Source: Alphaproteobacteria bacterium (GTDB lineage: Bacteria > Pseudomonadota > Alphaproteobacteria > MPNO01 > UBA830). From it: a stretch of 64,000 bases of DNA. Below the pieces are notes generated by a model. It was not told where the DNA came from. It did no database searches and saw only the letters and a list, made by a program, of their open reading frames with translations. The position numbers were made by a program, and so were the translations under genes. Every line of letters starts with the position of its first letter. Within the stretch, counting starts at the first letter, position 1. Positions 3,357-63,562 of the stretch are shown here, piece by piece. The stretch lies in the NCBI GenBank assembly GCA_964291215.2, contig OZ219791.1:1952001-2016000 (forward strand), in the 5' to 3' direction.

Positions 3357-5512
3357 GTAAGCGTTCGTTCGTGCGGTGATGACGATCTGCGCCGAGGTTT
3401 GTTTTGGTGATTCGGAGAAGGGGGCCGATAATTTTTTTGGCGGTGCCATCAGGTCGTGCATGGTCATGTGCATCGAGGATTTCGTGTCATCATCGGGTGC
3501 GGACGCCGCTGGCGACGTGCCGCGGTCGTCGTGTCGTGATTCGGCCACCTGGAAATCCCTGTACGATCGCGAGCGTATTCGAGCCGAGGCGGCGGAGGGT
3601 CTCTGTGAGGAGCTGCGCTTGCAGGAGGTGGAGGAGCGCAGCCGCACGAATTCCCTGAAGGCGATTTTCGAGAGCAATCGTGAGAAGCTGTCAGCTGCCC
3701 GTGCGGAGGTCAGGGAAGTTCGGCGGACGGCGAAGCAGTCTCTTGCGCTGAAGCAGGAGGTTGCGCGTCCGGGCCAGCTTCTTGCCGAGGCCGGCGCGCG
3801 GAAGCGGTCGACGGTGGTGTCGCTGCGCATGGAGAATGCCAGCCTGAAGACCGCGATGAAGGTTCTGGAGGGTCGGGGCGCTCGAGGCGGAGAACGACAA
3901 GCTTCGTTCGAACAGGTCGTACGGGCGCAAGAGCGAGAAGAGGCAGCGGGCGTCATCGAAGCGCGGCCAGCAGTGCGGCACTCCTGGCCGCGGCCGGCGC
4001 TCGAGGAGGTGGAGGAGCGGCTGGAGGTGGCAGAGGACGCCTGCTCGTGCTGCGTTGCCAACGGTTCGCACCAGGATCATCGTGATCAAAAGCGGCGGAT
4101 TGTCCGCCGGGGCTGTGACTGCCCCGGTTCACCGAGCGAGGTGGCGGCCGGCACCGCATTCGGGTGTGGACGCATGTGCTGCACGAGCGCGTGCATGCGG
4201 CCCTTGCGCCGCGTCCAGGGGCTTTCGCCGGGAACGCTGGCCAGCGAGCCGGATGCTGCCCCTGTTCGAGCCGCTTCGGGACGGGACCCCCGCGCACCGG
4301 GGTCTGCGCCATGCCGATGCATCCGGGCCCCGAGGGAGGTCCGGAAGTCGTGCCTGGCTCCGGACATCGGTCAGCCGTGACGCGGTCCTCTTCCACCCCT
4401 CGCGCAGCGCCGAGGTCGCGGCGAAGCTGTTCGCGGACGCCCCCATGTCTGCGACCGCTACGGCGCCTGCAAGAAGCTGGCGCGCCTGTGGTCCTTCATC
4501 ATCCTGTGCTGTTGCCGGGTGCATTGTCGGCGCGACTTTCCGGGCTGCGCTGGCCGCAGCTGGAGGGGTGGGAATGGATCGATCGCGGAGATCTGCCGCC
4601 TGAACACGGCTCGACTGTCTTGATTCCGGCGGCGTTCGAGGCCGCGCAGGCGGCGCTGGAGACTGCGGTCGCTGTTTGCGGAAGCGCCGAGGCTTCCGAA
4701 AGCGGCGCCGGAAGGCAGGCCGCTGCGCTCAACCATCGCGTGTTCGTCGACCATGGACAACAATTTCGGGGAAAGGGCTGTCAGGGGCCCGGGCGGAAGC
4801 CCGGCTTCGGTTCCGACAGCATGGACGGCTGTCATGTACACGGCACGGTCGCGAGGGGCGGCCTCGACATTCTGCGCTGGCGCCTGCGCGGAGAACGGCG
4901 GCCCGGCGATCTGTCGCCCTGGTTGCTGTGAGCCCGGAGAGGCGGCGGAGATTCGCAGCGCCGCCGTGAGGTCGAGGGCGCGACTTCATGGTCGCGCAGT
5001 GCTGCGACGATCACGGAGCGGATCCCATCGCCCGCGCCTTCTGCCGCCGCCAGCCCCGAAGCTGATCACGTCGGACACCGAGCCGCCGCTCCGAAGACCC
5101 TCGACGAGCTCCGCCCGCTGACACTACCTCGGATACACGCGCCTGGTCGGCGCGCAGATGCGCTACCATGCGGCGAGCCGCTGCTTCTCGACCGCCGCAT
5201 GGACCGCGCGCTATAACACCACGCCCGTGCCCGCTACGACCGACATGACAGAAGCCGAAGAAGGACATCTGGCCCGCTCCGCAAGGACTGGAAGCGGACC
5301 CTTTGAACCCTGCAACCGGCACAGGATGGCGCTCAGCTCCTCCTCCGCAGCGCCGAGACAAAACCGCAACCAATGCGGAAAACACGGCATGGCGCCAGTG
5401 CCCCTCACCGCGCATCCCGGTGCACGAAACCGCTCCGGGTGACGCTGGAACTCCCTGACAAAAGCCCGTCAAACGGACGAAAACAACAACACCTCACCGC
5501 ACGAACGCTTAC
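3357..5512 (+). mobile_element. Degenerate IS66-family element (single-transposase type) with DUF4338 passenger remnant
   Basis: Terminal inverted repeats GTAAGCGTTCGTTCGTGCGGTGA (3357) and TCACCGCACGAACGCTTAC (ends 5512). Frameshifted transposase with a coiled coil, Cys-rich segment and MDNNFGERAVRGP. Flanks TTGGCACT and GTTCAGCT do not form a target-site duplication. Confidence 0.85.
4966..5370 (+). pseudogene. DUF4338 (DruA-like domain) protein remnant inside IS66
   Basis: Fragments HYLGYTRLVGAQMRY, YNTTPV and RKDWKRTL match the recalled DUF4338 pattern; many internal deletions. Confidence 0.6.
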
Positions 5513-5582
5513 GTTCAGCTTCATAACCGAACTGAATCACAAACCCTTGAAACCGGTCAACTCTTTTTGGGTCAGGCTCTAA
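5513..5582 (-). mobile_element. Left end of another IS (IS5-like), cut by IS66
   Basis: Minus strand reads TTAGAGCCTGACCCAAAAAG, then TTGACC..TGATTC promoter-like boxes, then ATGAAGCTGAAC abutting the IS66 end. Confidence 0.4.
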
Positions 5583-5751: not shown

Positions 5752-6705
5752 CTACCTGAGCCGTTCGACAAAAAGGCTCCAGAAGTATTCGGCGGCACCC
5801 TCCATGGTGAGAGGGCTGTCGCCGGCTCGTCCGAAATGCGCCATCCCCAGAGGCTGGAGAAGCAGCGTGTAGCCGTCGTCGGACACGGACATCGACTCAT
5901 TGTAACTGTTCCCGCTGCCCAGACCGCCTGACGAGTAGTAGACCCCGTCGGTGCCCAAAGGGCCGCCCAACCAGATGCCGCAAACTGCCCGTTCCTCGCC
6001 CCCGACGAAGGCTCTCGCCTCGAAGCGGTTGGCGTCGACCTGTCGAAAGCTGGTTTCCACCCTGTCGTTTCGTGCTTGGAGTTCATTCAAGGAGTTCTCG
6101 AAATAACGGGCGACATACTCGAACGATGCACCAAGAAAGGCGTGGCGATCGCGGTCGGTGAACTCGGTCCTGATCCTGAGATTGCTCGAACGCGGACCTG
6201 ACGCTGCCGCGTCGGCGCGGGCGGCGGCAGATTCCGTAGGTTCCGCTACAGAAGACCGGGTGTGTGCCGTGTGTGCTGTGTCCGCCACCTGGCGAATGGC
6301 TTGGGCGACTTCCAGAAAGCCGTCGTCCAGGATTGCATGCTTGGTGACGGGCTTACCGTCCTCGGGGACTGCCATCAGGCGGCCGAATGGCGCTCCTTTC
6401 CAATCGCAGGGGCGGAGGATGACGGGGATGACGCGAGCTTCGCCGCGACCGTGACGCTCCAGCGCGCGCGTTATCTCGACATCGTAGCAATAGTCGGAGG
6501 CGATGAAGTCGGCGCTGACCAGCAACAGGATGATGTCGGCCGTGTCGAGTTGCTCGCTGATCTGGTCGTGGAGTCCGTCGCCCGGAACGATGCGGCGGTC
6601 GTGCCAGGTGGTGATCGCACCCTGGCGTTTCAGGCCCGCAAGGTACTTCTCGAGCTCGTTTCTGAGATCTTCGTCCGTGTGCGAATAGGACATGAAGACA
6701 TGCAT
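5752..6705 (-). CDS. TIR domain protein with uncharacterised C-terminal domain
   Basis: VFMSYSHTD, WHDRRIVPG, ADIILLLVSADFIASDYCYDVE (catalytic Glu position), VIPVILRPCDW; GGAG upstream of ATG 6705. Confidence 0.92.
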   Translation of the reverse strand: MHVFMSYSHTDEDLRNELEKYLAGLKRQGAITTWHDRRIVPGDGLHDQISEQLDTADIILLLVSADFIASDYCYDVEITRALERHGRGEARVIPVILRPCDWKGAPFGRLMAVPEDGKPVTKHAILDDGFLEVAQAIRQVADTAHTAHTRSSVAEPTESAAARADAAASGPRSSNLRIRTEFTDRDRHAFLGASFEYVARYFENSLNELQARNDRVETSFRQVDANRFEARAFVGGEERAVCGIWLGGPLGTDGVYYSSGGLGSGNSYNESMSVSDDGYTLLLQPLGMAHFGRAGDSPLTMEGAAEYFWSLFVERLR

Positions 6706-6910
6706 GGCTGCTGGAACTCCCTGGTGGCTCCGTGACAATTCGGCCTTGAGGGCCGGAGGCGTGCTGGATCGTCCGCAGCGCGGCCCGGCCGAAAATAGTG
6801 GTTTATGCCGTTACTGCCTCGAAATGGGAACGATGTCGCTGAAGCTCAATGCGCAACGGCGAACACGAGGGGTTTCTCTTGCGCGCAAGGCTACAAGCTC
6901 TTTGCGCCAT

Positions 6911-7240: not shown

Positions 7241-7244
7241 CTAG

Positions 7245-9037
7245 ACCGAAGTTCCGTATGATTTCAGCGGGAGAATCACACCAAGTGATTATTGGTAAAA
7301 TTGCATGATGGCGACATGGATATATTCCCATGTAACGGTGAATTTTACTCTTTACAAAATACGATGCAATGCCTGTATGCGTTGCCATGTGCGTCGACAT
7401 CGTCCCCAACCGCAATTCGCCCCCCGCCGTCCTCCTGAGCGAAGGATGGCGCGAGAACGGAAAGGTCAGGAAACGCACCATCGCCAATCTTTCCTCCTGG
7501 CCCATGGAGAAGGTGGAGACCCTGCGGCGTCTCTTGAAGAACGAACCCCTGGTTAGCCGTGCCGATGCCTTCGACATCGTCCGCTCCCTTCCTCATGGCC
7601 ATGTGGCCGCGGTGCTGGGAACCCTGAAGAAGCTGGACCGGCGGATCGACCCGAAGCCCTCTCCCAGGCGGGACCGGGTGCTGGCCCTGATCGTGGCGAG
7701 GCACCCGCTTCGAAGCTGGCCACGGGGCTGGCCGAGGCCACCGCGGCGAGTACCCTGGGCGAGATCCTCGAGGCGGAAGGGGACGACCTCTACGACGCCT
7801 GGCTCCTGGAGCGCCAGGAGAGGATCGAGCGGTCTCTGGCGGCACCTCGAAGAGGGCTGTCTGGTGCTCCTGACCTCGGTGTGGATGGAGGGACGAAAGT
7901 GTCCCTTGGCCCGACGCGGGCACTCCCGGGATGGCAAGAAGGGCAAGCTGCAGTCGGCCTTCTGTGTGATCGGGACGGGTGTCGGTGCGGGTGTTCCCCG
8001 GCAACACGGCGGATCCGGCCACGGTGTCCTCACAGATCGCCACGCTGCGGGAGCGGTTCTCCCTCGCGAAGGTGGTGGGGGACCGGGGGACCAAGGCGCG
8101 CGAGGAGGTCAAGCCTGCGGGCCAGCGCCTTGAGGGGCATCCGCGCCCTTGTGGAGGCCGGCGACGTCGAGATGTCGCTCTTCGACGAGAGAGACCTGGT
8201 GGAGATCACCAGCAATGCGTATCCCGGCGAACGCCTCATGGTGTGCCGCAACCCGCTGCTGGCCGAAGATCGGGCTCGCAAGCGCCAGGAACTGCTCAAG
8301 GCCACCGAGGCTTGAACCGATTGCCGCAGCGACACGGCGAGACAAGCGCCGCCTCGAGGGGGCCTTGAAGATCGGGGAGCGGGTCGGCAAGGTCATCGGC
8401 AGGTACAAGGTGGCGAAGCACTTCACGTGGTCCATCGACGATGACGGTGTCTTCACCTATGGGCGCGATGAGGCTGCCGCCGAGGCCAGGCTCCTCTACG
8501 TGATCCGCCTGCCGCAGAGCGCACTCGACGGTCCCGGCACGGTGCGCGCCTACAAGCGGTTGAGTTCGGTGGAACAGGCCTTCCGCAGCCTGAAGACCGT
8601 GGACCTGAAGGTGCGTCCCGTCTACCACCGCACCGGGCCCATGTCTTCCTGTGCATGCTCGCCTACTACATCGAATGGCACATGCGACTGAAGCCCATGC
8701 TGTTCGACGACGAGGATGCCGAAGGCGGCCGTCCGTCGTGGCGCCGGCAGAAGTCTCGGCGAGCACCCGGGCCAAGGCGGCAACGAAGAGGACGCCCGGG
8801 GGTGGCACAGCTTCCGTACCCTCATCGATGATCTCGCGACCATCACCCGCAACACCGTGGCGCCCCGCCTTGCGGGCGCCGAACCCTTCCAGGTCACCAC
8901 GCGGCCCACGCCGCTCCAGAGAAGGGCATTCAAACTCCTGGGCGTGCGCCTGTAGCGTTCTCGGTAGCGACACACCTGATTATTTCAAACGTCAATACAT
9001 TCATGATGATACGTCTGATCGGCGCTGGAAATTCGGG
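7245..9037 (+). mobile_element. Degenerate IS1634-family element, copy 1
   Basis: Inverted repeats ACCGAAGTTCC / GGAAATTCGGG flanked by CTAG on both sides. Transposase motifs VRKRTIANLS, GHSRDGKKGKLQ, VFPGNTADP, AFRSLKTVDLKVRPVYH are scattered over frames. Confidence 0.92.
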
Positions 9038-9157
9038 CTAGATCTTTCTGCAATCGGCAACGTCCAGACTATTTCCGTCCAAGGCGCGATGCGCCACCGC
9101 CGGTCCGTCCTGTCGTGATCTGCAGGGACTAGGACCACGACGATCCCATGCTAATTC

Positions 9158-10803
9158 GTGCCCGCGCGGAAATGACCGTTTTGGCTGACCCTCCGGCGAA
9201 ATTTCTGGTTTGATCGCCCTTCCGGGTCCCGCCCCGTTTTCGGAGGGATTCCTGCTGATTCGCAGTGGTATCAGGGCTCTTTCAGCCGAGAAGCCGGACA
9301 AGCGGCTCCGTTCCTGCTCTCGGCGGGTGGGTGGGGTGGAGGGACGCCGCCGTCAGGCGGCGCGTTTTCGTCGTCGTCGGGCCTGTCTGTGCAACAGCAG
9401 GCGGTGGACATTGAAGGCCGCCATGGACAGCGCCACCATCCGCGCAAAGCCGTCCGCCCCACAGGACTCGGTCCATGCCGCGTTGCTCAAGATTATTGAT
9501 CGCCGACTCCACGGCCGGATGCTGTCGGCGCATCTCCCGGAACGTCGTCTCAGCTTCCCGTTCCCGGTCCGCCCGACCAAGCTTTCCCTTCTTCGGCAGC
9601 TCGTCCAGCAGCTCGTCCAGTGCAATCCGGGGACTGTGGAACCCGCGATCGAAACTGCACAGGTCGGGGAAGCGAGCCTGTGCTTCCCGGATCATGGGCA
9701 CCGCATGGTCCACGTCACTGCCCTCCCACAGGATTCGGTGGTGCAGGAGGAAGCCGTGCTGATCCTCCAGCACGGCCACCGGCACGCCGAGTTCCACCGG
9801 CACTTGCCCTTCACGCACCAGCGCTCCTCGAAGATCGAAAACACCTTCTCTTCCTGCGGGATCTTCTCGCCTTAGGCGGCGGTCTACTTGGTCGATCTGC
9901 CGGCGGGCATGGTACGACTGGATCTTGAGAATCCTCAAGGCTCCGACGCCCTTCTCCACAAGTGCCGGAACCGTCTTCTGCGCTCCAACTCCCGGCTGTC
10001 GTCGAGGTACCATCCTCCGAAGAGGCCCGCCGGGTCTGTCGAACCTTCTGAAAGCGCCTCTTCAGCCCGCGGCTCCGATGCTGCCACTGCCGCCACCCCC
10101 GCGAGCACGGCTGCGCGGCCGCGCACCAGACAACGCATCGCATCCCACAGCAGGTTGACGTCCGTCGGGTAATGCACTCCACCACAAACGAATCGCAGCG
10201 GCCCCGCAAGGGACCTTGCCGCTCTTGTACTTGCCGCTCTTGCGGACCATCGCATGGCCGCTCTCCGCCACCAGTTGCGATACCTTCTCCAGCACTTCCG
10301 GCGTCAGATGGCTCACGTTCTCCAGTACCGTCCGATACCTGTACCTCGTGTTGTCCCGGATATCGCCGTGGTCCAGGAACTTGCGAACCGTCTCGTTCAC
10401 CAGCTCGTGCAGATGATCAAGGTCATACCCCAAGCCCTGCTTCAGGACACCAGGATCTTCCACAGCGCCGGGACGCCCTTTCCTGTGGGACACTCTCGGA
10501 AGAATCCCCTCCTCCAGGATCTTGAACAGCCGGGTCGGCATACACGTGCTGAATCCCGCGCAGCATCGGTGGGATGTCATCCCGCGAGTCTTCGCTGAGA
10601 TCGATCTTCTCGATCGCAACCTGGCCCAATTCCAGCTGCGGGCGGATAACGTTTCGCATGGCAATTCTCGCGAAGTTTTCCGAAAATCCGGCGGATTCCC
10701 GGTCTGATCGGCCAATTCCCGCCCCAAAGCGAGATTCTTCGTCCCTTCTATATCAGGATTCCACAAGAAAAATCAAGCAATTTTATATTTTTTTCGCAGG
10801 CAC
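9158..10803 (-). mobile_element. Degenerate ISNCY (ISDol1-like) element
   Basis: Ends GTGCCCGCG / CGCAGGCAC with a TAATTC direct repeat (9152-9157, 10804-10809). Transposase fragments SRDDIPPMLRGIQH, VHYPTDVNLLWDAMR, SFDRGFHSP, HPAVESAINNLE. Confidence 0.85.
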
Positions 10804-11054
10804 TAATTCGGAGACGCGAAATCCGAATGCGTTGGGGCTCAGCTTATCACAGATCGCCTCCTTGATTGCAATTTTCGTGCCGAGAAGGTCCCATCGAGCC
10901 TTGGCGGCACGATTGCAGCGCGACGCAAACTGAAAAAATCTCGCCAGTCGTCGCCGGATTAGCAGCGTGTGATCACCGTGGACCAGGACAGGCTGGCATT
11001 GACGCTTCCTGCATTAGACCCTACATTGTTGGGACAGAGAGGAAGGGTGGCGCA

Positions 11055-11366: not shown

Positions 11367-11913
11367 TCGCGCGGCGGCTCCTGGAATCGTCATCGAACCG
11401 TTCGATCCCGGCCGACATGACCGGTCGGGCTTTACCTGCGGCACGGACCGTCTCGACAATTTTCTGCGGTTCAGCGCCAGAAAGCAGCAGAAGGACGACT
11501 TTACGAGAATATTCGTTGCAGTTGTCGAAGGATTGCCCAAGGTGCTCGGCTACTATGCGCTGAATGCTCACGCCGTCGCGACGGACGACTTCGGACAGGC
11601 CCGGCCCCGGCGGGCTCCCAATACCGGCAGCGTTCCGGCGCTTTATCTCTCCATGATTGCTGTGGATCGAAGCTGGCAAGGCCGGGGACTCGGCTCCGAC
11701 CTTGCGGTTGATACGCTCGGCCGCGCCCTGAGTGTGGCTGGTGAAATCGGTCTCAAGTTGGTTGTCTTGGACGTGATCGACGATGGTGGGAACGAGGCCT
11801 TCGCGCGCCGTATGACATTCTACCAGCGTCTGGGTTTCCAGAGCTTCCAGGACCGTCCGGAACGGATGTTCATCGCTATCGAAACGATCCGGGCCATGTT
11901 CAGTGAAAGATAG
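11356..11913 (+). CDS. GNAT-family toxin (TacT/AtaT-type acetyltransferase)
   Basis: HDRSGFTCGTDRLDNFL, VLGYYAL, acetyl-CoA motif AVDRSWQGRGLG, FYQRLGF; directly downstream of the DUF1778 gene. Confidence 0.9.
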   Translation: MQGDRAAAPGIVIEPFDPGRHDRSGFTCGTDRLDNFLRFSARKQQKDDFTRIFVAVVEGLPKVLGYYALNAHAVATDDFGQARPRRAPNTGSVPALYLSMIAVDRSWQGRGLGSDLAVDTLGRALSVAGEIGLKLVVLDVIDDGGNEAFARRMTFYQRLGFQSFQDRPERMFIAIETIRAMFSER

Positions 11914-11929
11914 TCGGGACAGTTTGACG

Positions 11930-13353: not shown

Positions 13354-13372
13354 GCGGCAGGGTATCCCGGTT

Positions 13373-14723: not shown

Positions 14724-14735
14724 CGAAACTGTCCC

Positions 14736-15698: not shown

Positions 15699-15702
15699 CC
15701 TG

Positions 15703-51517: not shown

Positions 51518-51540
51518 GCAACGTCTCCCTGGCGAACGGA

Positions 51541-53277: not shown

Positions 53278-55391
53278 TCGTCCCTTCGCATGACGATGTG
53301 ACCGGGCAGGTTAATCCGGGCAGTAAAGCCGTCAAGCACGATGGTCCCTGTCCCGTCCTCGACTATGACGGCGGGTCCCGCGATCTTGTCCCCCGGCGCC
53401 AGCATCTCCCGGCGATATACCGGTACGGGCTTCATGTGCGCTTCGTCATGGTCGAACAGATCGCGCAGGGTTTCTTTCACAGGCGTCGATTCGGGGGGCG
53501 CGGGCGGGCAGACTTCCGGATCGGCGGTCGCAGCCGAAAGACGCAGGGTCCAGCTCATCACTTCGATGCCGAGATCCGGTATGTGCCGCCCGTAAGTCGA
53601 CCGGTAGATTTCGTCGAATTCGCTGATCAGTTCGTTTCGGATCCCGTTTCCGTACGGCCCGGCGGGCAGCGCAACGGTGATCTCGTGACCCTGTCCGGTA
53701 TAGCGCATGTCCGCGGCGCGTCTTTCCACCAGTTCCGATCCCGGCGCCGCGCTGGCCACCACCTCCTCGGCTTCCCGGCGCATCTCGGCATACAGCGCGT
53801 TCAGGAGGTCGGGGTCGAAGCCGTCGTTCAGCGGCGCGTAGCGGCTGCGTACGACCTCGTAGGCGACCGGAGCCTGAAGGAAGCCGATTGCCGACCCGAC
53901 GCCGGCGGCAACCGGAATTACGACCTCGTCGATGCCGAGTTTTCCGGCCAGCCGCGCCGCGTGCAGCGGCGCGGCACCCCCGAAGGCCACCAGCGTGCGG
54001 CCGCGGGTCTGCTTGCCGCGCTCGATGGCATGGACACGAGCTGCATTGGCCATGTTCTCCACCACCACCTCCGAGATGCCGAAAGCTGCGGCGGTCGTGG
54101 AGAGCGTCAGTTCGCTGCCCACCGCACGGTCGATCGCGTGGGCGGCGAGGCTGGGGTCGAGCGTGATGCTGCCGCTGGCGAAGGCGGCGGGGTCGATGCG
54201 GCCGAGCGCGACATCGGCATCGGTGACGGTGGGCTCTCTGCCGCCGAATGCGTAGCAGGCCGGTCCCGGCGCCGCGCCTGCGCTCTTCGGCCCAACAAGG
54301 ATGCGCGACATCGCATCTACGCGGGCGATCGAGCCGCCGCCGGCTCCGATCTCGACCATTTCCACCACGGGGATCCGAAGCGGCAGGCCGCTGCCCTTGA
54401 GGAAACGATACTGCCGCGCCACCTCAAAGCTGCGCGAATATTGCGGCTCGCCATCATCGATGAGGCAGATCTTCGCGGTGGTACCGCCCATGTCGAAGGA
54501 CAGTACATCGCGAAGTTCGCATTCGCGGGCCAGGCGCGCTGCCAGTATCACGCCGCCGGCGGGTCCCGATTCAACGAGACGGATCGGAAAGCGGCGCGCG
54601 GTCTCGACCGAGGTAAGTCCGCCGCCCGATGTCATGAGGCAGAGTGGGCAGGAGAATCCCATGCCGCGCAATTCGGTCGAGAGCCGGCCGAGATAGCGGG
54701 CCATCAGCGGCTGGACATAGGCGTTGGCGGCCGTGGTCGACCAGCGCTCGTATTCGCGGATTTCCGGGGACACCTCGCTTGACAACGAGATCCACATTTC
54801 GGGAAATTCGCGGGCTAGGATTCCCGCGAGCCGGCGTTCATGGTCCGGGGCGGCATAGGAATGCATGAGCCCGATGGCAACCGACTCGATCCGGTGGTTG
54901 CGGAGTCGGGCCATGACGTCGTCGAGCGTGTCCTCTTCGAGCGGAATCAGGACGTGGCCCCGCGCATCAACCCGTTCTGCGATTTCGAACCGGAATTCGC
55001 GCGGCACCAGTGGCGTCGGCTTGTCCATGAAGATGTCGTACTGTTCGAACCTGTTCTCATGGGCGATTTCGACGGCGTCGCGAAATCCCTCGGTCACCAG
55101 CATCGCGGTTCTGGCACCCTTGCGTTCTATGAGGGCATTCGTCGCCAGTGTCGTGCCATGTACGACCAGCCGGAAGTCTGCCGGTGCAAGTCCGGTTTCT
55201 TCCAGCGCGTGGCAGATACCTTGGAAGACGCCATTCTCGGGCGCTCCGGCGGTGGTCGGGACCTTGCACGTGAAGAGCGCGCCACCGTTGTCCACTGCGA
55301 TGTCGGTAAAGGTTCCGCCAATGTCCACGCCGATGCGGCATCCGCCCAGCGTGGGAGGACTTTTCGAGTGTTTTTCAGCAGGATGCGACAT
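53274..55391 (-). CDS. Hydantoinase A/oxoprolinase family protein
   Basis: DIGGTFTD, HGTTLATN, ESGPAGG, DMGGTT, GAGGGS, FGGAAPLH. Confidence 0.93.
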   Translation of the reverse strand: MSHPAEKHSKSPPTLGGCRIGVDIGGTFTDIAVDNGGALFTCKVPTTAGAPENGVFQGICHALEETGLAPADFRLVVHGTTLATNALIERKGARTAMLVTEGFRDAVEIAHENRFEQYDIFMDKPTPLVPREFRFEIAERVDARGHVLIPLEEDTLDDVMARLRNHRIESVAIGLMHSYAAPDHERRLAGILAREFPEMWISLSSEVSPEIREYERWSTTAANAYVQPLMARYLGRLSTELRGMGFSCPLCLMTSGGGLTSVETARRFPIRLVESGPAGGVILAARLARECELRDVLSFDMGGTTAKICLIDDGEPQYSRSFEVARQYRFLKGSGLPLRIPVVEMVEIGAGGGSIARVDAMSRILVGPKSAGAAPGPACYAFGGREPTVTDADVALGRIDPAAFASGSITLDPSLAAHAIDRAVGSELTLSTTAAAFGISEVVVENMANAARVHAIERGKQTRGRTLVAFGGAAPLHAARLAGKLGIDEVVIPVAAGVGSAIGFLQAPVAYEVVRSRYAPLNDGFDPDLLNALYAEMRREAEEVVASAAPGSELVERRAADMRYTGQGHEITVALPAGPYGNGIRNELISEFDEIYRSTYGRHIPDLGIEVMSWTLRLSAATADPEVCPPAPPESTPVKETLRDLFDHDEAHMKPVPVYRREMLAPGDKIAGPAVIVEDGTGTIVLDGFTARINLPGHIVMRRDE

Positions 55392-55652
55392 CACATCGGC
55401 CCAATGCAAACATCATTCCACCGGGCCAGTGTAAGCGTAGCGCAGGCGGATTCATTCCAAACCGAAACTGTCTGGATCCGCAGGCGGTCCCGGACCATCC
55501 GGCCGAACTCCAAGGCTCCCGACGTACGAACCACGCCGAGCGCTGCTACAGTCGACCGCGATGTCTGCCACAATCTATCAGCAGAGTTCGCAACGGTCAC
55601 CGGCAGCGACGCCGAGTGATCAGCTCTTCAATGGTGTCGGCAAAAATCGCTT

Positions 55653-57262
55653 TCACCGCCATGCCGTCTCCAAATCGATCCGAGCCAGAATTTCCTCGAT
55701 TACGGCGCTGGCCTCCCGCTGCCTCAGCACTCGAGATTCGCGCTGATCAGCCGTCTCACCCTCGTCCAGTTCGAAACGGGCAACTGGTACCGGGGGGAAT
55801 CGGGTACTGTAACTTGATGTCTGGAAATTTGTCTGAGGTTTGCGCTTTGAGGCGTTTCACTGGGGGGCTAGCCCCCCAGTGAAACGCGGCGCCATCGTGC
55901 TATCCCATGGAGTTGCAAAACCTTCATGGAGGAAGCGAATGGACCTGCGACACACTACGACGATCGGGACTGTTTTGGAACATCTGATCGCAAACGAAGC
56001 AACGGATCTGGGGCGGGTCTTTGGCCAGCTCTTCGAGCTTGCGATGCAAATCGAGCGCGAGCAGCACTTGAAAGCGGGCCACCGGACGCCGGAGCGACAG
56101 GGCCAACGGCTACAAACGGATCGACACCCCCACTGTTACCATTCAGGTGCCAAAGACGGCCGGTCACGGGGACGATCCGTCCCCAGTCGCTTGAACGCGG
56201 CCAGCGATCTTCTCGCGCCGTCATGCTGGCCGTAGCCGAGATGTACATCAACGGTGTTTCCACGCGGCAGGATGTAATGCGCGAGTTCGGGAGCCTGTCC
56301 TCTTCTCAGGGGGCCACCAGGTTGCTCGATGAAGAACTCGCCGCGCAACCGGCCCCTGATGAAATACCTGATCCTGGATGCGCGCTACGAAAAAGCCCGC
56401 CATGACGGCGTTGTGCGCGATGTTGCAGTGCTCTCGGCCATCGGAATAGGGGCTGCAGGCACGTTCTAGGGCTCTCTGTGGCGCTCTCCGAGGCCGAGGT
56501 CCATTGGAGAGCCTTCCTGGAAAGCTTGCTAGACCTGCATGGTACGACCTTCATCGTCTCGGATGCCGGGCTGAAAGCGGCACGGTGCTGGGCGCGGCGA
56601 CATGGCAGCGCTGCCAATTCCACCTGGCGCAAAACGCCGTGCACCGAACAACGACATCAGGAAACGTATTGGAAAACAGCTCGGAGCCATGCGTCCTCAC
56701 TCCAAACTGCCGAGTCTGAACTGGGCGCCCTCGTGGCCAGCGACAAGCATCCAGGCTTCCTGGCTGGAAAACAATGCGCCCGAGGGGTTCGCTGTCTTCA
56801 CCTTGCCCGATGCTCACCGCAAGCGCATGCGAACCTCGAACGGCATCGAGCGACCGATCCAGCAAGAACTCAAGCGGCGCACCTCCAAAGTCAGGGTCTT
56901 TCCGAACCTCGCCTCGTTGGAGCGCCTCTCAACCGCGGTCCTCATCGACGAAAAATGGGAAACCGAAACCAAGGCATACATCAAATGGGAACAGCTCGAT
57001 GACTGAGAGCTTCACGACAATTTCCAGACATCAGGTTGCGTAATCCCGAATCGTCCTTCCGATACCCTTCGACTTCGCCGTCCCCTGCGAAACGATTGCG
57101 AAGGATCGACAAGCAGTTCCGGATCACAGCGCCGTGCCTGTCCTTCAAGGCGTCCCGGAACATCCGCGCAGTGCCGTTTTGACCCTTCTCCGCGTGCTCA
57201 ATGTAATAGATCAGGCTATGAGCGTCCTTCCCCTCGTCCGTCCCGCGGCCAAGCGGCACTGC
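55653..57262 (-). pseudogene. C-terminal remnant of a nucleotidyltransferase-like (type IV TA-associated) gene split by IS256
   Basis: KDAHSLIYYIEH...EGYRKDD (57050-57260) continues past the IS as PVARFELDEGE...RQREASAVIEEILARID (55653-55800); family assignment from memory. Confidence 0.45.
55802..57046 (+). mobile_element. Degenerate IS256-family element
   Basis: Inverted repeats share TGATGTCTGGAAATT. Transposase (55939-57006) motifs EMYINGVSTR, LILDARYEK, WQRCQFH, RTSNGIER, RVFPN are split by many deletions. Confidence 0.93.
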
Positions 57263-57368
57263 AGCAAGTGATCTTGGTCACCGTCAGGGGCGCCCGAACC
57301 GCTAGCGCCTGGGAGAGCTTCGACCCGTTCAAGGCCGCGGCCGCACAAGACGGCCGTTCACCAAGGTC

Positions 57369-60368
57369 TCAGCGCCGCCTATGCTGCCTGGAACCTGACT
57401 TCTTCGGCTGTCCTTGGGGGCGGGACCGAGCTTGCTTCAGATTGTGCGTGTAGTCGCATCGTGGGTAGTTCGAGCAGCCTAGGAAGCGGCCGAACCGTCC
57501 CATCTTCGTTTCTAGCCAGCCGTCGCAGACCGGACATCCCTCGATCGATCCCCCGCAGTCACGGCACCGGAATGTGCTGCCCGATCTGACCGGCAGCCCG
57601 GTTCCGCACTTCGGACACGATCGTTCCGTGTGCTCGCAATATGGCCAGTTGGAGCAGCCGTAGAAGACATTCCTATGACGCGCGTTTTCTCGGCGTTCCA
57701 GACGTCCCTCCTCGCACTGCGGACATGCAACATCCCCTTCCGGCAAGCGGCCGAACACGGTCACATGTTTCTTGTGGTCGATCAGTTCCGTGACAAACGC
57801 GGACGGGGGGGCGCCCTCGGCGAGCAGGAATACTTGGCGGCGTGCACGGGTCAACGCGACATAGAGCAGGCGTCGCTCCTCGGCATTGGGATACCCTTCG
57901 GGCGCCGCCATTACCAGGTCAAGCAATGGGTCGTCCGCGATCTCAACCGGAAAACCGTACTTGCCGGCGCACAGCCCGAGCACCACCACATAGTCGGCTT
58001 CCAGCCCTTTGGCGCGATGCACGGTCATGTAGCCGAATCGCAGGCCCGGATACTGCTTTGCCAGGCTGTCGAGATTCAGCGGCTGCAAATGCCGGTAGCG
58101 GCCCAGCAGCAGCACCTCCGACATTCCGTCGTGCCTTTGGGCGTCCTCGGCGATCCGGTCGAGGGCTTCCTTTAGTAGTGAGAGCCCTTTGTCGCCTGAA
58201 AGGCCTATATGCACCGCTGGTCGGTCGGCCTCGCGCGTTGCACGGACCGTCTTGCGGATCTGCGCAGGATTGCGCAGCACGAAATCGGTGGCGACCATGG
58301 CGATGCGATCCGCACACCGGAACGTGGTTTCCAGATCGATGCGTTCGAACTCGCCGAATCTCTCCCCGAATTCCCGCATGACGGCGATGTCTGACCCGCC
58401 GAACCGGAAGATCGCCTGCCAGTCGTCCCCCACTGCAAACAGCTGCGATCCCGGAGAGCGGTCGAGCAGCGCCCTTAACAATCGCGCGCGGGCGGGCGAG
58501 ATGTCCTGGAACTCGTCGACCAGAATGTAGCCGAAGGGACTGTGGTAGCGACCGGCCTCTACGTGATCGGTGGCCCGGGCGATCATGTCATGGAAGTCGA
58601 TCTCTTCGTCACGGGCGAGCGTTGCCTGATAACGTTCGAAGATCGGCCCGAACATCTTCAGAAACGCTTCTGCCCGCCCCTCGTCGTCAAGGGAACCAGC
58701 CTGCCGGGCGACCTCCTCCAAGGAACGTTGGCCGCCCTTGAAGTGCTGCAGGAAGGTCGCCAGCAGGCGGATGAATGGGTCGACCCGTCCCTGTTCTTCG
58801 AGGACTGAAAACACCTGTTCCTTTGAAAGCGGCGTCCGCTCCACACCGTGCGCCATCAGCTTTTTCTCAAGGTTCCGGATCAATCGTCCATCAGCGCGTT
58901 CGCGCGTGAAGGTCTCTATCAGGACGGTGTCTCGTTCGGTATGGACCTGCCGCTTCCACTCCATTTCCTCGAGGTATTTCTCTCGGTCAACGAACGGCGC
59001 CGTATTTCCCTCGGCGTCGAGCCCGAAGTGCTCGATATAGATACCGTGGTCCGGAAGATAGAAGTCGGGCTTGTACTGGCGCTTCTCGGCTGTCGCGGTA
59101 TCGTGCTCGTAGGATGCCTCGTACTCGTAGGCGATGCCGTTGAGATAGAGGAAGTTCGCAATTTCGCATTCCTCGTAGCTCTTCACCTTGTCACCCTTCA
59201 GCGAACGGATGTCATTCCGACGGATGTAGTTCCAGTACGCGCCCCAGTTTGGGAACTCGTGCGTGCTCTTGTAGGGCGCGAACTGATCCTGGAACCATTC
59301 CAGCATGGTCTCCGAAAGGTCGCCGCCAGCCAGCAAATCAGCGACGATGCCCTTGAGCACATCGAACAGCATCCGGTCGTTTTCCGCCGACCGGGCCAGC
59401 GCCGGACGCTTGCCTTCGGCCTCGCCGATGATCGCCATGCCTAGGCTGTGGAAAGTTCGAATCGTTACGTCGCGGGCGGTTACGGTGCCGAGCCGTCTAC
59501 CGACGCGTTCCTCCATTTCGTTCCGGGCGTCCCGTGCAAAGGCGAGCAACAGGAGCTCGGACGGCTTCCGATACCCTCTCTGGACCAGCCAGCCCGCTTT
59601 CGCCACGATGACCGAGGTCTTGCCGCTTCCCGCTGCGGCGACCACCAGATTGCGCCGCTCGTCGACGACTACCGCTCTGCGTTGTTCGTCCGTGAGCGGC
59701 CTGACCTCGATCCGGTTGAACAGGTCGCGCGACCGGACTAGCTCATTCGCGATGAATGCCTCGTTGGCCCTTGATCTGGCATTGTCCGGCGCTTCCAGGA
59801 ACTCCAGCATGGCCCTCAGTATCCGGATCTCCGGGGTGTCGGACAGGGCATCCGGCCAGTGTCCGGCTACGCCGCCGGCCACCGCCTGCGCATCCTGCAC
59901 AAGATCGTGGATGGTGTTGGAATGGACATATCCCGGTGGATCGGCAATTTGGACCAACCGGCCGTGGACGGAGCGAAGCGCACCAATCTGGGGTCCCAGC
60001 GTACTGCGCCACCATTCGATCCTCGCGGTCTCAATCGCATCCGCCAGCGCATCGGCTTCGCTTCGGGCAAGCCCCGACACGGTTATCCCGGCCGTTGCAC
60101 TGCCCAGGCTGACGCCGCTCCAGCGCCTGCCAACCTTCAGCCGGACCGATTCGATGTCCCGTAGGGCGATTTTCCTCGAGTGCAACGCGAAAGCGACCGT
60201 GACGTTGTCGGCGTTCACCGTCGCGGCCCCGGCGCTCCCCGGACGAAACACTGTGAACAGCAACGAGGTCAGTCCGGTCCGCTTCACGCAGAACCGCGAG
60301 CTTGGACTGGCCACTTCTCTGGAGGTGCTGTGCACCTCTAATCCTGCAAGTTTCGTCACTTCTGCCAT
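57369..60368 (-). CDS. UvrD/helicase IV-like SF1 helicase with inserted nuclease-like domain and C-terminal zinc ribbons
   Basis: AAAGSGKT, LVDEFQD, VGDDWQAIFRF, HRAKGLE, YVALTRAR; VKSYEE..IAN..YE..PDFYL..IEHFG insert; CPQC, GCSNWPYC, CPKC, CRDC, CPVC, GCSNYPRC. Confidence 0.92.
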   Translation of the reverse strand: MAEVTKLAGLEVHSTSREVASPSSRFCVKRTGLTSLLFTVFRPGSAGAATVNADNVTVAFALHSRKIALRDIESVRLKVGRRWSGVSLGSATAGITVSGLARSEADALADAIETARIEWWRSTLGPQIGALRSVHGRLVQIADPPGYVHSNTIHDLVQDAQAVAGGVAGHWPDALSDTPEIRILRAMLEFLEAPDNARSRANEAFIANELVRSRDLFNRIEVRPLTDEQRRAVVVDERRNLVVAAAGSGKTSVIVAKAGWLVQRGYRKPSELLLLAFARDARNEMEERVGRRLGTVTARDVTIRTFHSLGMAIIGEAEGKRPALARSAENDRMLFDVLKGIVADLLAGGDLSETMLEWFQDQFAPYKSTHEFPNWGAYWNYIRRNDIRSLKGDKVKSYEECEIANFLYLNGIAYEYEASYEHDTATAEKRQYKPDFYLPDHGIYIEHFGLDAEGNTAPFVDREKYLEEMEWKRQVHTERDTVLIETFTRERADGRLIRNLEKKLMAHGVERTPLSKEQVFSVLEEQGRVDPFIRLLATFLQHFKGGQRSLEEVARQAGSLDDEGRAEAFLKMFGPIFERYQATLARDEEIDFHDMIARATDHVEAGRYHSPFGYILVDEFQDISPARARLLRALLDRSPGSQLFAVGDDWQAIFRFGGSDIAVMREFGERFGEFERIDLETTFRCADRIAMVATDFVLRNPAQIRKTVRATREADRPAVHIGLSGDKGLSLLKEALDRIAEDAQRHDGMSEVLLLGRYRHLQPLNLDSLAKQYPGLRFGYMTVHRAKGLEADYVVVLGLCAGKYGFPVEIADDPLLDLVMAAPEGYPNAEERRLLYVALTRARRQVFLLAEGAPPSAFVTELIDHKKHVTVFGRLPEGDVACPQCEEGRLERRENARHRNVFYGCSNWPYCEHTERSCPKCGTGLPVRSGSTFRCRDCGGSIEGCPVCDGWLETKMGRFGRFLGCSNYPRCDYTHNLKQARSRPQGQPKKSGSRQHRRR

Positions 60369-60726
60369 TCATTTCGACGATGTCATAATCGACGCCAACA
60401 TCACGGAATATACTACACCTTGATATAGAGCACGGATTTTACTGGTTGTTCTTGGCTTCCTGCAAATCAAACCCCTTTCCAGATACCGTTCCCGAGACCG
60501 GAACGATTCGAAATAGGGCGTAGCCGGCTCGCGCCTGCCGATAAACGGTCCGTCGCGCGGAGGGCATCACGGCAAGTGTTCCGCCAGACCGTGGAGAAGG
60601 CAATCCTCGCGTCAGCACAGTTGCACGCATGCCCGATCCGTGTCGCTTGGATTCTATCGGTTGAGGTCGGTATAGTTCATTTCAGCAGAACGCAAGCCTT
60701 TCCGCTGGTTCGGAGACTACGACCTG

Positions 60727-63562
60727 GTGTTATGTCAGCAATGATATGTCGCACATTTGGTGCTAGACTGTCCGTCCATTCGGGATGGAGGTCGGAGTAT
60801 GAAACGCTACGTGGTGACCCTGGACGAACGGGCAGAACTTTCGGAGATCACGACCAAGGGCTCGCATCTGTCGCAAAAGGTAATCAACGCCTTGATCTTG
60901 CTCAACTGCGACGAGGGTGCGTTCAATGAATGCCAGATGACCGGGAAGGTCATTGCCGAGATTCTGCGCATCAGCATGCGCAAAGTAGACCGGGTGAAAA
61001 AGCGTTTCGTTGAAGAGGGGCTGGAGGCGGCATTGGGTGGCCGGTAAGGACGCCGTCCTACCTACATGCGAAAAGCCGACGGCACCTTCGAGGCGCGCTT
61101 GGTGGCTCTGAGTTGTGGTGAACCGCCTGAGGGTTACGCGCAATGGTCGTTGCGGCTGCTGGCCGACCGCGTTGTTGAGCTTGGTTACATTGATACCGTG
61201 TCACACGAGACGGTGCGGCGTGTTCTAAACCGAAGTTCCAGAAAATTCCGGTTGAAATGCACGTCAAGTCATTGATGCAGCGTGGTTTATCAGATTTTTC
61301 GTGCGTCATATTGTACCCATGTAATATTGTGTTAGATGCTTGACATCCATGGATTTTCCGCCCATATTCAGTAGCCATGTATATCGAATCCATCCCCAAC
61401 CGCTCGTCCCCGCCCGCCATCCTGCTCCGCGAGTCCTGTCGCGAAGCCGGAACGGTCAAGAAGCGCACCCTCGCCAACCTTTCCAAGCCCGCTCTCATCG
61501 AGGGATTGCGCATTCTGCTCAAGGGAGGAACCGCAGGTCTCGACGACGCCTCGTCCGCTCTCTCTTCCCCATGTCGCCGCGGTGCTGGGAACCCTGAAGA
61601 AACTGGACCGGCGGATCGACCCGAAGCCTTCTCCCGAGCGCGATCAGGTTTTCGCCATGATCGTGGCACGCATCCTTGAGCCCGCCTCGAAGCTGGCCAG
61701 GGGGCTGGCGACAGCGGTCAGCGCCTTGGGTGAGATGCGGAGTTGGACGAGAATGCCCTCTACGGCTCCTGGAACGTCAGGAGAGGATCCCCTGGCGGCA
61801 CCTCGAAGAGGGCTGCCTGGTGCTCCTGACTTCCGTGTGGATGGAGGGGAGAGCATGCCCCTTGGCCCAACGGGGTCATTCCCGGGATGGCAAGAAGGGC
61901 AAGCTGCAGTCGGCCTTCTGTGCGACCGGGACGGGTGTCGGTGCGGGTGTTCCCCGGCAACACCCGGCCACGGTGTCCTCACAGATCGCCACGCTGCGGG
62001 AGCGGTTCTCCTTTGCGAAGGTGGTGGGGGACCGAGGCCCGCGAGGAGGTCAAGCCTGCGGGCCAGCGCCTTGAGGGGCATCCGTTCACTGGTGGAGGCG
62101 GGTGACGATGTCGCTCTTCGACGAGAGAGACCTGGTGGAGATCACCAGCGATGTGTATCCCGGCGAACGCCTCTGCCGCAACCCCCTGCTGGATCGGGCT
62201 CGCAAGCGCCAGGAACTGCTCGAGGCCACCGAGGCTCGCACCGATTGCCGCAGCGACACGGCGCGACAAGCGCCGGGAAGATCGGGGAGCGGAAGGTCAT
62301 CGGCAGGATGGCGAAGCACTTCACGTGGTCCATCGACGACGACGGTGTCTTCACCTGTGGGCGTGATGAGGCTGCGATCGCTGCCGAGGCCAGGCTCCTC
62401 TATGTGGTCCGCCTGCCGCAGAGCGAGCTCGACGGTCCCGCGCGCCTACAAGCGGCTGAACTCCGTGGAACGGGCCTTCCGCAGCCTCAAGGACCTGAAG
62501 GTCCGTCCCGTCTACCCGAACCCCGAGTCCGCGTCTTCCTGTGTATGCTCGCCTACTACATGGCACATGCGACTGAAGCCCATGCTGTTCGACGACGAGG
62601 ATGCCGAAGGCGGCCGTCCGTCGTGGCGCCGGCAGAAGTCTCGGCGAGCGCCCGGGCCAAGGCGACAACGAAGAGGACGCCCGGAGGTGGCACAGCTTCC
62701 GCACCCTCATCGGCGATCTTGCCACCCGCAACACCGTGGCGCCCCGCCTTGCGGGCGCCGAACCCTTCCAGGTCACCACACGGCCCACGCCGCTCCAGAG
62801 AAGGGCACTCAAGCTCCTGGGCGTGAAGCCATAGTGTACCGAGACCGCTGAAATGTATCGAATGTCATTTCTATCAGATACTTAGGTCTGATCGGCTCTG
62901 GAACTTCGGTCTAAAAAAACTGCCTCAAGCCATGGCAGCGGGTTGGGTGGGTGATTCCTCCTCAAGGGAACGCCGACTTCGCCGCAGCGAAGGTGCTCGA
63001 TCGCCGCCCCGTCGCCTTCCCCGTGGTCTGCATGGATGAAACGCCCCCCGACCGGCGAGACACGGCAACCGATCGCCATGGCGCCGGGACGGGCGTAACG
63101 ACTACGAGTATCGACGTTGCGGCACCTGCAACGTCTTCATGGAACCCCTGGCCGGCAAGCGCATGACCAAGGTAACCGAGCGCAAGATCGCGCAGTTCCT
63201 GGCCGACATCGCCGAGCGCTACTAAGATGCCACCACCATCACCCTGGTGATGGACAACCTCAACACTCACCGGCCCGGCGCCTTCTATGAGGCCTACCCG
63301 CCGGACGAGGCCAAGGCCCTGTGGGACCGTTTCGAGTTCGTCTACACCCCCAAGCACGGCAGTTGGCTGAACGTGGTCGAACTCAACGTCATGATCCGCC
63401 AGTGCCTGAACCGCCGCATCGACTGCATCGAGGTGTTACGCCGGGAAGTTGCCGCCTGGCAGGCGACCGCATTCAGGCCAAGGTGGATTGGCAGTTCACC
63501 ACCGACGATGCCCGCGTGAAACTCAAACGTCTTTATCCGATATTTGACGAATGACAAGACAC
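60727..63562 (+). mobile_element. Degenerate IS630-family element interrupted by IS1634
   Basis: Ends GTGTTATGTCA / TGACAAGACAC followed by TA. HTH ORF from 60799 (WSLRLLAD, SHETVRRVL); DDE part VVCMDE, MDNLNTH, YTPKHGSWLN, ARVKLKRLYP. Confidence 0.9.
61229..62910 (+). mobile_element. Degenerate IS1634-family element, copy 2
   Basis: Perfect inverted repeats ACCGAAGTTCCAG / CTGGAACTTCGGT with a CTAA duplication (61225-61228, 62911-62914); clearly homologous to 7245-9037. Confidence 0.93.

What the first reader, a model, noticed from the sequence alone, without database searches (positions are those of the whole stretch)
3357..63562. All six IS elements are broken by dense ~6 bp microdeletions while host genes are clean: possible repeat-targeted inactivation system
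Seen: IS66, both IS1634 copies, ISNCY, IS256 and the IS630 DDE part keep their ends and recognisable motifs, but lose short blocks every few tens of bases. Against recalled IS256 consensus the gaps read AGH[YE]RTP, GYK[PK]RID, EFG[IE]SLS, VSD[DH]AGL, AVL[VE]IDE. Nonsense substitutions are rare, and about 45 neighbouring single-copy genes show no such damage. Ordinary neutral decay gives a mix of substitutions, 1-bp indels and large deletions, not one size class across five unrelated IS families. Inference: a homology- or copy-number-dependent process, loosely analogous to fungal RIP, such as guided cleavage (pAgo-like) with end-joining repair. The responsible genes are not in this window. The main alternative is a consensus/polishing artefact in multicopy sequence.
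Basis: partly seen in the sequence, partly recalled or inferred. Interest (0 to 1): 0.9.

Follow-up and report, generated by a model that had tools for sequence, protein, structure and literature searches.

The report
Six-base scars riddle bacterial jumping genes
In this bacterium and a sister species, most repeated jumping genes are riddled with real deletions of five to seven bases that start at a preferred short sequence, a signature not seen in single-copy DNA, which likely marks an unidentified cut-and-rejoin process aimed at repeated DNA, loosely like the repeat-destroying defence of fungi.

Summary
All six window elements carry dense deletions: against an intact outside IS256 protein the window copy has 19 indels, all deletions of 5-7 nt, and no stops. 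Genome-wide, 443 of 677 indel sites in repeats are 5-7 nt, with troughs at 4 and 10. Contigs of independent runs hold both alleles, so it is not an assembly artefact. Sister species G002 shows the same with a 5-6 nt ruler; copies 0-2 substitutions apart differ by up to 14 deletions. One breakpoint has a sequence rule (G002: AT, 96 of 139; G000: [CG]|[AG]T, 128 of 250), and sites recur across subfamilies 15-25% apart. Single-copy DNA has a far sparser 5-8 nt excess without the motif (5 of 31). Against universality, one young 12-copy IS is untouched. No Argonaute, Ku, LigD or IS-matching CRISPR spacer was found, so the guide-plus-NHEJ idea lacks parts. Most likely a host nuclease excises 5-7 nt from paired repeats; the gene is unknown. 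Not found in ten paper searches or four answered look-ups of earlier scan findings.

The parts
3358..5511 (+). IS66-family element, broken; 40 deletions against the family reconstruction, 29 of them 5-7 nt, with 35 substitutions
7241..9041 (+). IS1634-family element; 21 deletions against an intact G004 transposase, 15 of 5-7 nt, no stops
9132..10809 (-). ISNCY-family element; 11 deletions against the family reconstruction, 7 of 5-7 nt
55803..57045 (+). IS256-family element (84 copies of at least 60% length in G000); 19 deletions of 5-7 nt against an intact outside transposase, no stops; site empty in run X3
60724..61229 (+). IS630-family element, left part; the whole site is empty in run X3
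61225..62913 (+). second IS1634-family element, inserted in the IS630; 34 deletions against an intact G004 transposase, 23 of 5-7 nt, no stops
62913..63565 (+). IS630-family element, right (DDE) part; 8 deletions in the whole element, 7 of 5-7 nt

Best explanation
Repeated mobile elements in this bacterium and in sister species G002 lose 5-7-base pieces whose one end sits at a preferred short sequence ([C/G] then AT or GT), likely because a host nuclease nicks there while copies are paired in homologous recombination, a second cut likely falls 5-7 bases away, and the ends would be rejoined without Ku. SHOWN: the size class; the polarity (deletion); presence in read-derived contigs; the breakpoint motif on both strands; recurrence at homologous sites of diverged subfamilies; loads that exceed substitutions in young copies; the rise with copy number; heavy shuffling among copies; absence of the motif in single-copy deletions. 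INFERRED: that each deletion is mostly made anew at a limited set of favoured sites, in bursts that hit one copy several times; that pairing between copies is the trigger; and that damaged copies then spread by transposition in trans and by recombination. NOT IDENTIFIED: the nuclease and the joining enzyme.
For: Ruler: distinct indel sites in G000 repeats number 4 nt 5, 5 nt 97, 6 nt 216, 7 nt 130, 8 nt 32, 10 nt 2, 11-14 nt 41, of 677; ordinary bacterial pseudogene deletions follow a power law (PMC6054270, section 18). G002 has its own shorter ruler, 5 nt 208, 6 nt 191, 7 nt 60. Motif: the deleted piece starts with AT in 96 of 139 G002 events (14 expected); [CG]|[AG]T in 128 of 250 G000 repeat events (control 17%); it lies on both strands relative to the transposase (IS256 8 vs 6, IS630 5 vs 7). 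Speed: six G002 copies 0-2 substitutions apart, with different flanks, differ by up to 14 deletions of 5-9 nt. Two-copy cases in G000: a group II intron pair with 30 vs 2 gaps of 5 nt or more for 45 substitutions, and an IS pair with 13 vs 2 gaps for 21 substitutions. Recurrence: five G002 subfamilies 15-30% apart share sites (58 pairs; null 20.6 if uniform, 65 if limited to CAT[CG] sites), keep their own flanking bases, and at several sites differ in length; IS1634 subfamilies 11-25% apart in G000 also share sites. Pairing is frequent: 71 of 71 full IS256 copies have distinct deletion haplotypes, and linkage is near zero beyond 30 nt. Deletion load per copy is over-dispersed about fourfold.
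Against: A young G000 IS family (12 copies, 4-14 substitutions from the seed) has no 5-8 nt deletion, although relatives 10-20% away carry them; two other families of 5-6 copies are also nearly clean. Most sites show one allele in 30-80 copies, and new private 5-7 nt deletions are few (28 singletons of 164 sites, several of them alignment variants), which fits spread better than constant new cutting. The motif is weak in G000 (half of the events lack it; IS256 has 158 motif sites but about 28 used). It predicts only weakly which G002 subfamily is hit (motif in 35 of 46 hit vs 28 of 46 unhit), and the CAT[CG] null was chosen after seeing the data. No candidate gene shared by G000 and G002 and missing from G001/G003/G004 was found, apart from type III-B CRISPR, which G030 has without the signature in a small sample. 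Negative controls are small or young (G003/G004: 19-31 substitutions per pair; G040: mostly near-identical copies).
Confidence: 0.5

Rival explanations
1. Loop-only, deletion-biased gene conversion. Rare deletions arise anywhere. When two copies pair, loops of 5 nt or more escape MutS and are cut out of the longer strand by a sequence-preferring loop nuclease, so deletions sweep through a family without carrying neighbouring substitutions.
For: 84 of 164 sites of 5-7 nt are in more than half of the copies, vs 1 of 33 sites of 1-2 nt (p 3e-8). Single alleles per site, near-zero linkage. The floor at 5 nt matches the MutS limit of about 4 nt (PMC2504288, introduction passage); MutS and MutL are intact. 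A family with no deletion allele stays clean.
Against: It needs lost donor copies to explain about eight deletions seen only in a G002 subfamily with 0-2 substitutions and the two-copy intron and IS pairs. It needs templating across 15-25% divergence. Single-copy deletions, its supposed supply, lack the motif. It does not explain the sharp ceiling at 7-8 nt.
Confidence: 0.25
2. A dedicated guide-directed genome defence (Argonaute- or CRISPR-like) cuts multi-copy DNA, and an end-joining pathway repairs it with loss.
For: Copy-number dependence. Family-specific escape. pAgos are reported to process multicopy elements including IS (PMC10250240, passages). Type III-B is in G000 and G002 but in only 3 of 53 genomes of the order.
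Against: Piwi, Ku and the ATP-ligase C domain were found in 0 of 5 genomes, with controls ringing. 112 G000 spacers have no IS match (best ungapped identity 72%), and 114 G002 spacers have none in the G002 loci held. The motif is on both strands, unlike transcript-guided cutting. The ruler differs between species, whereas the Cmr 6-nt step is fixed (recalled). G030 has type III and one 6-nt gap in 284 substitutions.
Confidence: 0.1
3. Damage during transposition: excised or copied intermediates are nicked by a host nuclease and re-sealed with loss before they reinsert, so deletions accumulate per jump.
For: The window IS256 and IS630 sites are empty in strain X3, only about 0.16% diverged in core DNA, yet the IS256 carries 19 deletions. 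G002 copies with separate flanks carry partly nested deletion sets.
Against: IS66, IS256, IS630, IS1634, ISNCY and a group II intron move by different routes (established knowledge) but share one signature. Deletion sets are mosaic, not tree-like. A family that jumped about 12 times is clean.
Confidence: 0.1
4. A general, genome-wide deletion bias that is visible only in neutral DNA.
For: In single-copy DNA, G000 lacks 5-8 nt relative to G001 143 times vs 15 the other way (coding 67 vs 3, non-coding 76 vs 12).
Against: Density is about 1 per kb in non-coding and 0.09 per kb in coding single-copy DNA, vs 12-15 per kb in IS630/IS256 copies. Single-copy events lack the motif and are microhomology-rich. 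Single-copy broken genes show mostly 1-nt indels.
Confidence: 0.03
5. Assembly or polishing artefact in multicopy sequence.
For: Only contigs, not raw reads, could be laid, so copy-by-copy haplotypes across a whole IS were not checked.
Against: Read-derived contigs of runs X1-X4 carry 5-6 nt indel alleles, several at the same places in two to four runs. X1 matches the single-copy window with 0 differences over 6,536 and 13,343 bases. A second species has its own ruler and motif. IS-rich G040 has no such peak.
Confidence: 0.02

Closest known systems
Repeat-induced point mutation (RIP) of filamentous fungi (recalled; seen only in the search listing)
   Same: Repeated DNA is mutated out of function with a short sequence preference, unique DNA is largely spared, and several changes can hit one copy together.
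   Different: RIP makes C-to-T changes through a methyltransferase-like protein in the sexual cycle of eukaryotes. Here the product is a 5-7 nt deletion in a bacterium, and no responsible gene is known.
Prokaryotic Argonaute DNA interference between multicopy elements (CbAgo, EmaAgo; PMC10250240, passages)
   Same: Preferential action on multicopy elements including IS.
   Different: No Piwi domain was found here. The passages read report processing into small DNAs with no strong nucleotide bias; the word 'deletion' does not occur in the main text.
Large loop repair and the MutS loop limit (PMC2504288, passages); gene conversion among dead IS copies in Wolbachia (Cordaux 2009, seen only as a reference in PMC3205602)
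   Same: Loops above about 4 nt escape efficient MutS repair; IS copies recombine with each other.
   Different: The passages read describe repair of loops up to hundreds of nt, with no 5-7 nt window, no breakpoint motif and no one-way loss. Wolbachia IS are described as decaying by substitutions and deletions over time.
IS-excision enhancer (IEE), a primase-polymerase/helicase with microhomology end-joining (PMC9943667, abstract)
   Same: Acts on IS elements and joins ends without Ku.
   Different: IEE promotes excision of whole elements and needs 4 bp or more of homology. Here 56 of 151 junctions have none, and only a 35-position AEP-TOTE fragment exists in G000, none in G002.
Ordinary pseudogene deletion bias with 3n excess (PMC6054270, passages and section 18)
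   Same: Deletions outnumber insertions; 6 nt is favoured; some microhomology.
   Different: That spectrum is a power law led by 1 nt. Here 3 and 4 nt are nearly absent and 5-7 nt make up 443 of 677 sites.

Membership tests
pAgo DNA interference | Piwi-domain protein in the genome | tested here: not met
   PF02171 in 0 of 5 genomes, control rang in 2 of 14; the pPIWI-RE search was blank and so was its control
pAgo DNA interference | IS-derived small guide DNAs | not testable with these tools
   needs small nucleic acid sequencing
Ku/LigD end-joining | Ku and ATP-dependent ligase | tested here: not met
   PF02735 in 0 of 5; PF04679 in 0 of 5; controls rang
CRISPR self-targeting (types I-G, II-C, III-B) | cas genes and arrays present | tested here: met
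   I-G plus III-B genes beside a 97-repeat array; a 17-repeat array beside a 1055-aa HNH-domain frame
CRISPR self-targeting (types I-G, II-C, III-B) | spacers matching the damaged elements | tested here: not met
   112 G000 spacers gave only short chance-level matches, best ungapped identity to six reconstructions 72%; 114 G002 spacers were tested against part of G002 only
RIP-like repeat mutagenesis | dependence on repetition, with unique DNA spared | tested here: met
   load rises with copy number; motif absent from single-copy deletions; exception: a clean 12-copy family
RIP-like repeat mutagenesis | product is C-to-T change by a RID-type methyltransferase | tested here: not met
   the product is a 5-7 nt deletion; a RID homologue was not searched for
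Topoisomerase IB short-deletion signature | TopIB gene | tested here: not met
   PF01028 in 0 of 5, control rang in Deinococcus
NucS/EndoMS mismatch cleavage | NucS gene | tested here: not met
   no match in G000; weak partial matches in G002 and three other genomes of 21
IEE microhomology end-joining | full-length AEP-helicase gene; junction homology of 4 bp or more | tested here: not met
   fragment only; 13 of 151 junctions have 4 nt or more
Deletion-biased gene conversion | recombination among copies and deletions at high frequency | tested here: met
Deletion-biased gene conversion | every gained deletion has a donor copy | tested here: inconclusive
   deletions in G002 young copies and in two-copy pairs have no donor among the copies examined, but donors may have been lost

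The most novel reading that the evidence does not exclude
A lineage of Alphaproteobacteria has a dedicated, heritable genome defence that recognises repeated DNA by pairing and inactivates it with ruler-measured 5-7 nt excisions at a preferred dinucleotide: a bacterial counterpart of fungal RIP that works by micro-deletion, without Argonaute, CRISPR guides or Ku, and whose ruler and sequence preference evolve between species.
Probability: 0.35. Interest if true: 0.97.

Novelty: categorically new. Interest (0 to 1): 0.86.

Why it matters
I know of no bacterial process that marks repeated DNA for mutational inactivation, and the ten paper searches run here showed none. These genomes give a clean, countable signature (size, breakpoint motif, copy-number dependence) in two species, with relatives in which it was not seen, so the gene can be hunted by comparison. 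It would explain how a genome that is 36% repeats keeps its host genes intact while most of its mobile elements are dead. It would add a new mutational signature to bacterial evolution, and point to a Ku-independent cut-and-join activity that removes a fixed few bases. Even under the leading rival (loop-only deletion drive) it would be a new one-way ratchet acting on bacterial repeats.

Tried and rejected
Artefact: rejected, although only contigs, not raw reads, were available. No RNA holder was listed, which says nothing about expression.
Pure deletion drive fed by genome-wide mutation: my working model up; demoted.
Spreading of damage from IS into flanks: rejected. Single-copy 5-8 nt deletions rise with distance from repeats (non-coding 10 in 25.6 kb within 1 kb, 21 in 8.2 kb beyond 10 kb).
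Long recognition motif or restriction site near the breakpoints: no 4-6-mer stood out in G000 windows. In G002, offsets -30 to +11 gave only the AT start. The far end shows no signal beyond conditioning effects.
Hairpin-loop removal: deleted bases are no more unpaired than controls (0.52 vs 0.55).
In-frame selection: 6-nt deletions fall in all three codon phases (8/6/5).
Effects of contig, strand or repeat-rich neighbourhood on load: none.
'A diverged partner is enough to trigger it': the clean family has 7 hits at 10-20% divergence.
Type III CRISPR as the cause: G030 is negative in a small sample, and no spacers match.
Scan of selected foreign-looking G000 proteins (36 against Pfam, 28 against PADLOC, partly the same proteins, chosen from 128 listed in 20 islands plus window and CRISPR-locus proteins; 910 such proteins genome-wide): BREX-, DISARM-, CBASS-, Dsr2-, Thoeris- and type IIG-like proteins, none tied to the signature.
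Rfam: no match in the window. The window's IS256 DNA was not found in 20 relatives.
Paper searches showed no report of this pattern; one search failed and was not repeated. Supplements were not read.
Earlier-findings look-ups gave nothing like it.


Full report
Setting. The window is G000:C2:1952001-2016000 of a 6.15 Mb, two-contig genome (99% complete), whose glmS is closest to uncultured Alphaproteobacteria. Its habitat was not established by any search. About 36% of each contig is repeated DNA.

The observation. A frameshift-aware alignment of the window IS256 to the intact Sulfitobacter dubius transposase gives 19 indels, all deletions of 5, 6 or 7 nt, and no stop. The two IS1634 copies have 21 and 34 deletions against an intact G004 protein, 15 and 23 of them 5-7 nt, with no stops. 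IS66, ISNCY and IS630 have 29 of 40, 7 of 11 and 7 of 8 deletions in that class against within-genome reconstructions. Putting back the pieces that other copies still hold restores a 417-codon open frame for IS256, which confirms the polarity. Over the repeat seeds with a median of seven or more copies (up to 22 partners each), 677 distinct indel sites were counted: 1 nt 88, 2 nt 28, 3 nt 13, 4 nt 5, 5 nt 97, 6 nt 216, 7 nt 130, 8 nt 32, 9 nt 18, 10 nt 2, 11-14 nt 41. Polarity in that catalogue was assumed, not tested site by site. The 11-14 nt hump is about what adjacent double hits would give (my estimate). Bacterial pseudogene deletions normally follow a power law led by 1 nt (PMC6054270; passages and section 18 read).

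Not an artefact. Read-derived contigs of four runs from one study show 5-6 nt indel alleles at IS positions, several at the same place in two to four runs (12 of 68 indel rows shown). Run X1 matches single-copy window DNA with no difference over 6,536 and 13,343 bases, and X2 and X3 span the places where G000 is shorter than G001 without gaps. X3, about 0.16% diverged in core DNA (30 differences in 19,225 bases), has empty sites for the window's IS256 and IS630. Raw reads were not available, so whole-copy haplotypes rest on the assembly.

Are host genes clean? I fetched 1,048,640 bases of G001 (about 93% identical, about 5 Mb in all), which gave 819,552 aligned single-copy columns. G000 lacks 5-8 nt 67 times in coding DNA (52 of them in-frame 6 nt) and 76 times in non-coding DNA; G001 lacks 3 and 12. 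That is about 0.09 and 1 per kb, against 12-15 per kb in IS630 and IS256 copies. These events are unpolarised, rich in microhomology, and lack the repeat motif (5 of 31 vs 128 of 250, counting only events with at most 1 nt of microhomology), so they look like a separate, weaker class. Thirty-seven single-copy genes that appear broken in G000 show mostly 1-nt indels and few of 5-8 nt. In the window, 24 of 27 comparable genes have no indel.

How the deletions behave in G000. Gaps of 5-7 nt per substitution rise from 0.023 in two-copy families to 0.149 in families of 20 or more. In five families, 84 of 164 sites of 5-7 nt are in more than half of the copies, against 1 of 33 sites of 1-2 nt. All 71 full IS256 copies have different deletion sets. 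The four-gamete test fails for 70-96% of marker pairs per distance class, and SNP linkage falls from r2 0.27 within 15 nt to 0.05 beyond, so the copies recombine heavily. Microhomology is only modestly raised (2 nt or more in 62 of 151, 30 expected; none in 56). At this point a deletion-biased conversion model looked best.

A second species changes the picture. G002, of the same genus and about 75-78% identical in DNA, shows the same thing with a shorter ruler: 5 nt 208, 6 nt 191, 7 nt 60, 4 nt 22, 8 nt 13 in 513,872 bases held, with overlapping loci and SNP variants of one site not merged. Six copies of one element differ by 0-2 substitutions yet by up to 14 deletions of 5-9 nt, and have different flanks. 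The deleted piece begins with AT in 96 of 139 events (14 expected; C|ATC best). G000 has a related, looser rule, [CG]|[AG]T, found on both strands relative to the transposase. The same sites are lost in subfamilies 15-30% apart, each keeping its own flanking bases, and at several sites with different lengths. The 58 shared pairs exceed a uniform null (20.6) and an S|AT null (35.9), and match a post hoc null limited to CAT[CG] sites (65). IS1634 subfamilies in G000 behave alike. Two-copy elements in G000 can be lopsided: a group II intron pair has 30 vs 2 gaps of 5 nt or more for 45 substitutions. Controls show no such peak. G004 and G003 IS pairs have 19-31 substitutions and no gap. IS-rich G040 has two gaps of 5-7 nt among 25 distinct gaps in 205,465 columns and 1,566 substitutions, and G030 has one in 284 substitutions. 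These controls are small or young.

Results against the reading. A 12-copy G000 element with 4-14 substitutions has no 5-8 nt deletion, although older relatives do, and low-copy IS256 and IS66 copies are intact. Only about 28 sites are used in IS256, which has 158 motif sites, and half of the G000 events lack the motif. The motif separates hit from unhit G002 subfamilies only weakly (35 of 46 vs 28 of 46). Single alleles dominate each site. These points keep loop-only conversion alive, and mean that extra determinants, a lag or a recent slowing in G000 are needed.

Genes. Not found in G000 or the four congeners: Piwi, Ku, the ATP-ligase C domain, TopIB. NucS is absent from G000. The pPIWI-RE search is uninformative because its control was blank. 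MutS, MutL and RecJ have open frames. All 19 reverse transcriptase matches in G000 are partial. G000 has type I-G and III-B genes and a Cas9-sized HNH frame with arrays of 97 and 17 repeats, which are themselves undamaged; no spacer matches an IS. Type III RAMP genes occur in 3 of 53 genomes of the order, G000, G002 and G030, an association that G030 does not bear out. RecA was not searched. A partial scan of foreign-looking proteins named common defence systems but no candidate.

Mechanism. I commit, at 0.5, to de novo micro-excision in paired repeats: a host nuclease with a short preference cuts at [CG]|[AG]T, a second cut falls 5-7 nt away, and the ends are sealed without Ku, with several hits per encounter. 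Damaged copies then spread by transposition in trans and by recombination. The size, motif, recurrence, speed and repeat dependence are shown; the trigger, the de novo origin of most events and the enzymes are inferred. Rivals are loop-only deletion drive (0.25), a guide-directed defence (0.1), damage during transposition (0.1), general bias (0.03) and artefact (0.02).

Comparison with what is known. It works like fungal RIP in aim (recalled) but not in chemistry. It shares a target class with pAgo interference (PMC10250240, passages) but lacks the protein. It touches the MutS loop limit (PMC2504288, passages), IS decay in Wolbachia (PMC3205602, passages) and IEE end-joining (PMC9943667, abstract only) without meeting their defining features. 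Ten searches of the held library (listings and abstract starts seen) showed no report of this pattern; subscription journals are largely missing, and no supplements were read. Four answered look-ups of earlier scan findings showed nothing like it.

Verdict. A real, two-species mutational signature concentrated in repeated mobile DNA, for which I found no description and whose gene is unidentified. Interest 0.86.

Noticed in passing
window 55852-55887: Perfect G/C hairpin centred on CTAG inside the left end of the IS256; many copies of the family begin or break near this point, suggesting that it is a target for another element.
   Followed up: no
window 12090-12197: Fragment of an AEP-TOTE primase domain (35 of 230 positions), like the start of an IS-excision enhancer; the only match among five congeners; no plasmid DNA match for 11900-13500.
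   Followed up: partly
window 5752-6738 (-): Intact TIR-domain gene scoring as Thoeris ThsB-like (PADLOC E 5.8e-121), between IS66 and IS1634.
   Followed up: partly
window 16956-18370 and 34115-35010: Two single-copy genes broken relative to G001: a cytochrome P450-like gene with 5-, 8- and 1-nt deletions, a 1-nt insertion and a stop; another with 1- and 6-nt deletions and a stop.
   Followed up: partly
window 55300-60700: Strain X3 differs by about 2% around the helicase IV gene but about 0.16% in core DNA, and lacks the IS256 and IS630 insertions: a recombined or separately acquired segment.
   Followed up: no
G000 single-copy DNA vs G001: 5-8 nt losses in single-copy DNA become denser with distance from repeats (non-coding about 0.4 per kb within 1 kb, 2.6 per kb beyond 10 kb); unexplained.
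   Followed up: partly
L163:242-18704 (G002): A 115-repeat array with 36-nt repeats and 30-nt spacers, similar to G000's 17-repeat array, sits between a Cas9-sized HNH frame and type III-B cmr genes.
   Followed up: no
L190:2846-4865 and G000 C2:13034-14822: Two dead copies of a group II intron with shared and private 5-8 nt deletions; all reverse transcriptase matches in G000 are partial.
   Followed up: yes
G000 C2:2470782-2473159: Young 12-copy element with an intact 463-codon frame and no 5-8 nt deletions: the natural control for what escapes the process.
   Followed up: partly
L349, L352, L357, L363 (G000 islands): BREX-, HEC-01-, type IIG-, Dsr2-, CBASS E1-E2-JAB-patatin- and DISARM-like genes.
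   Followed up: no
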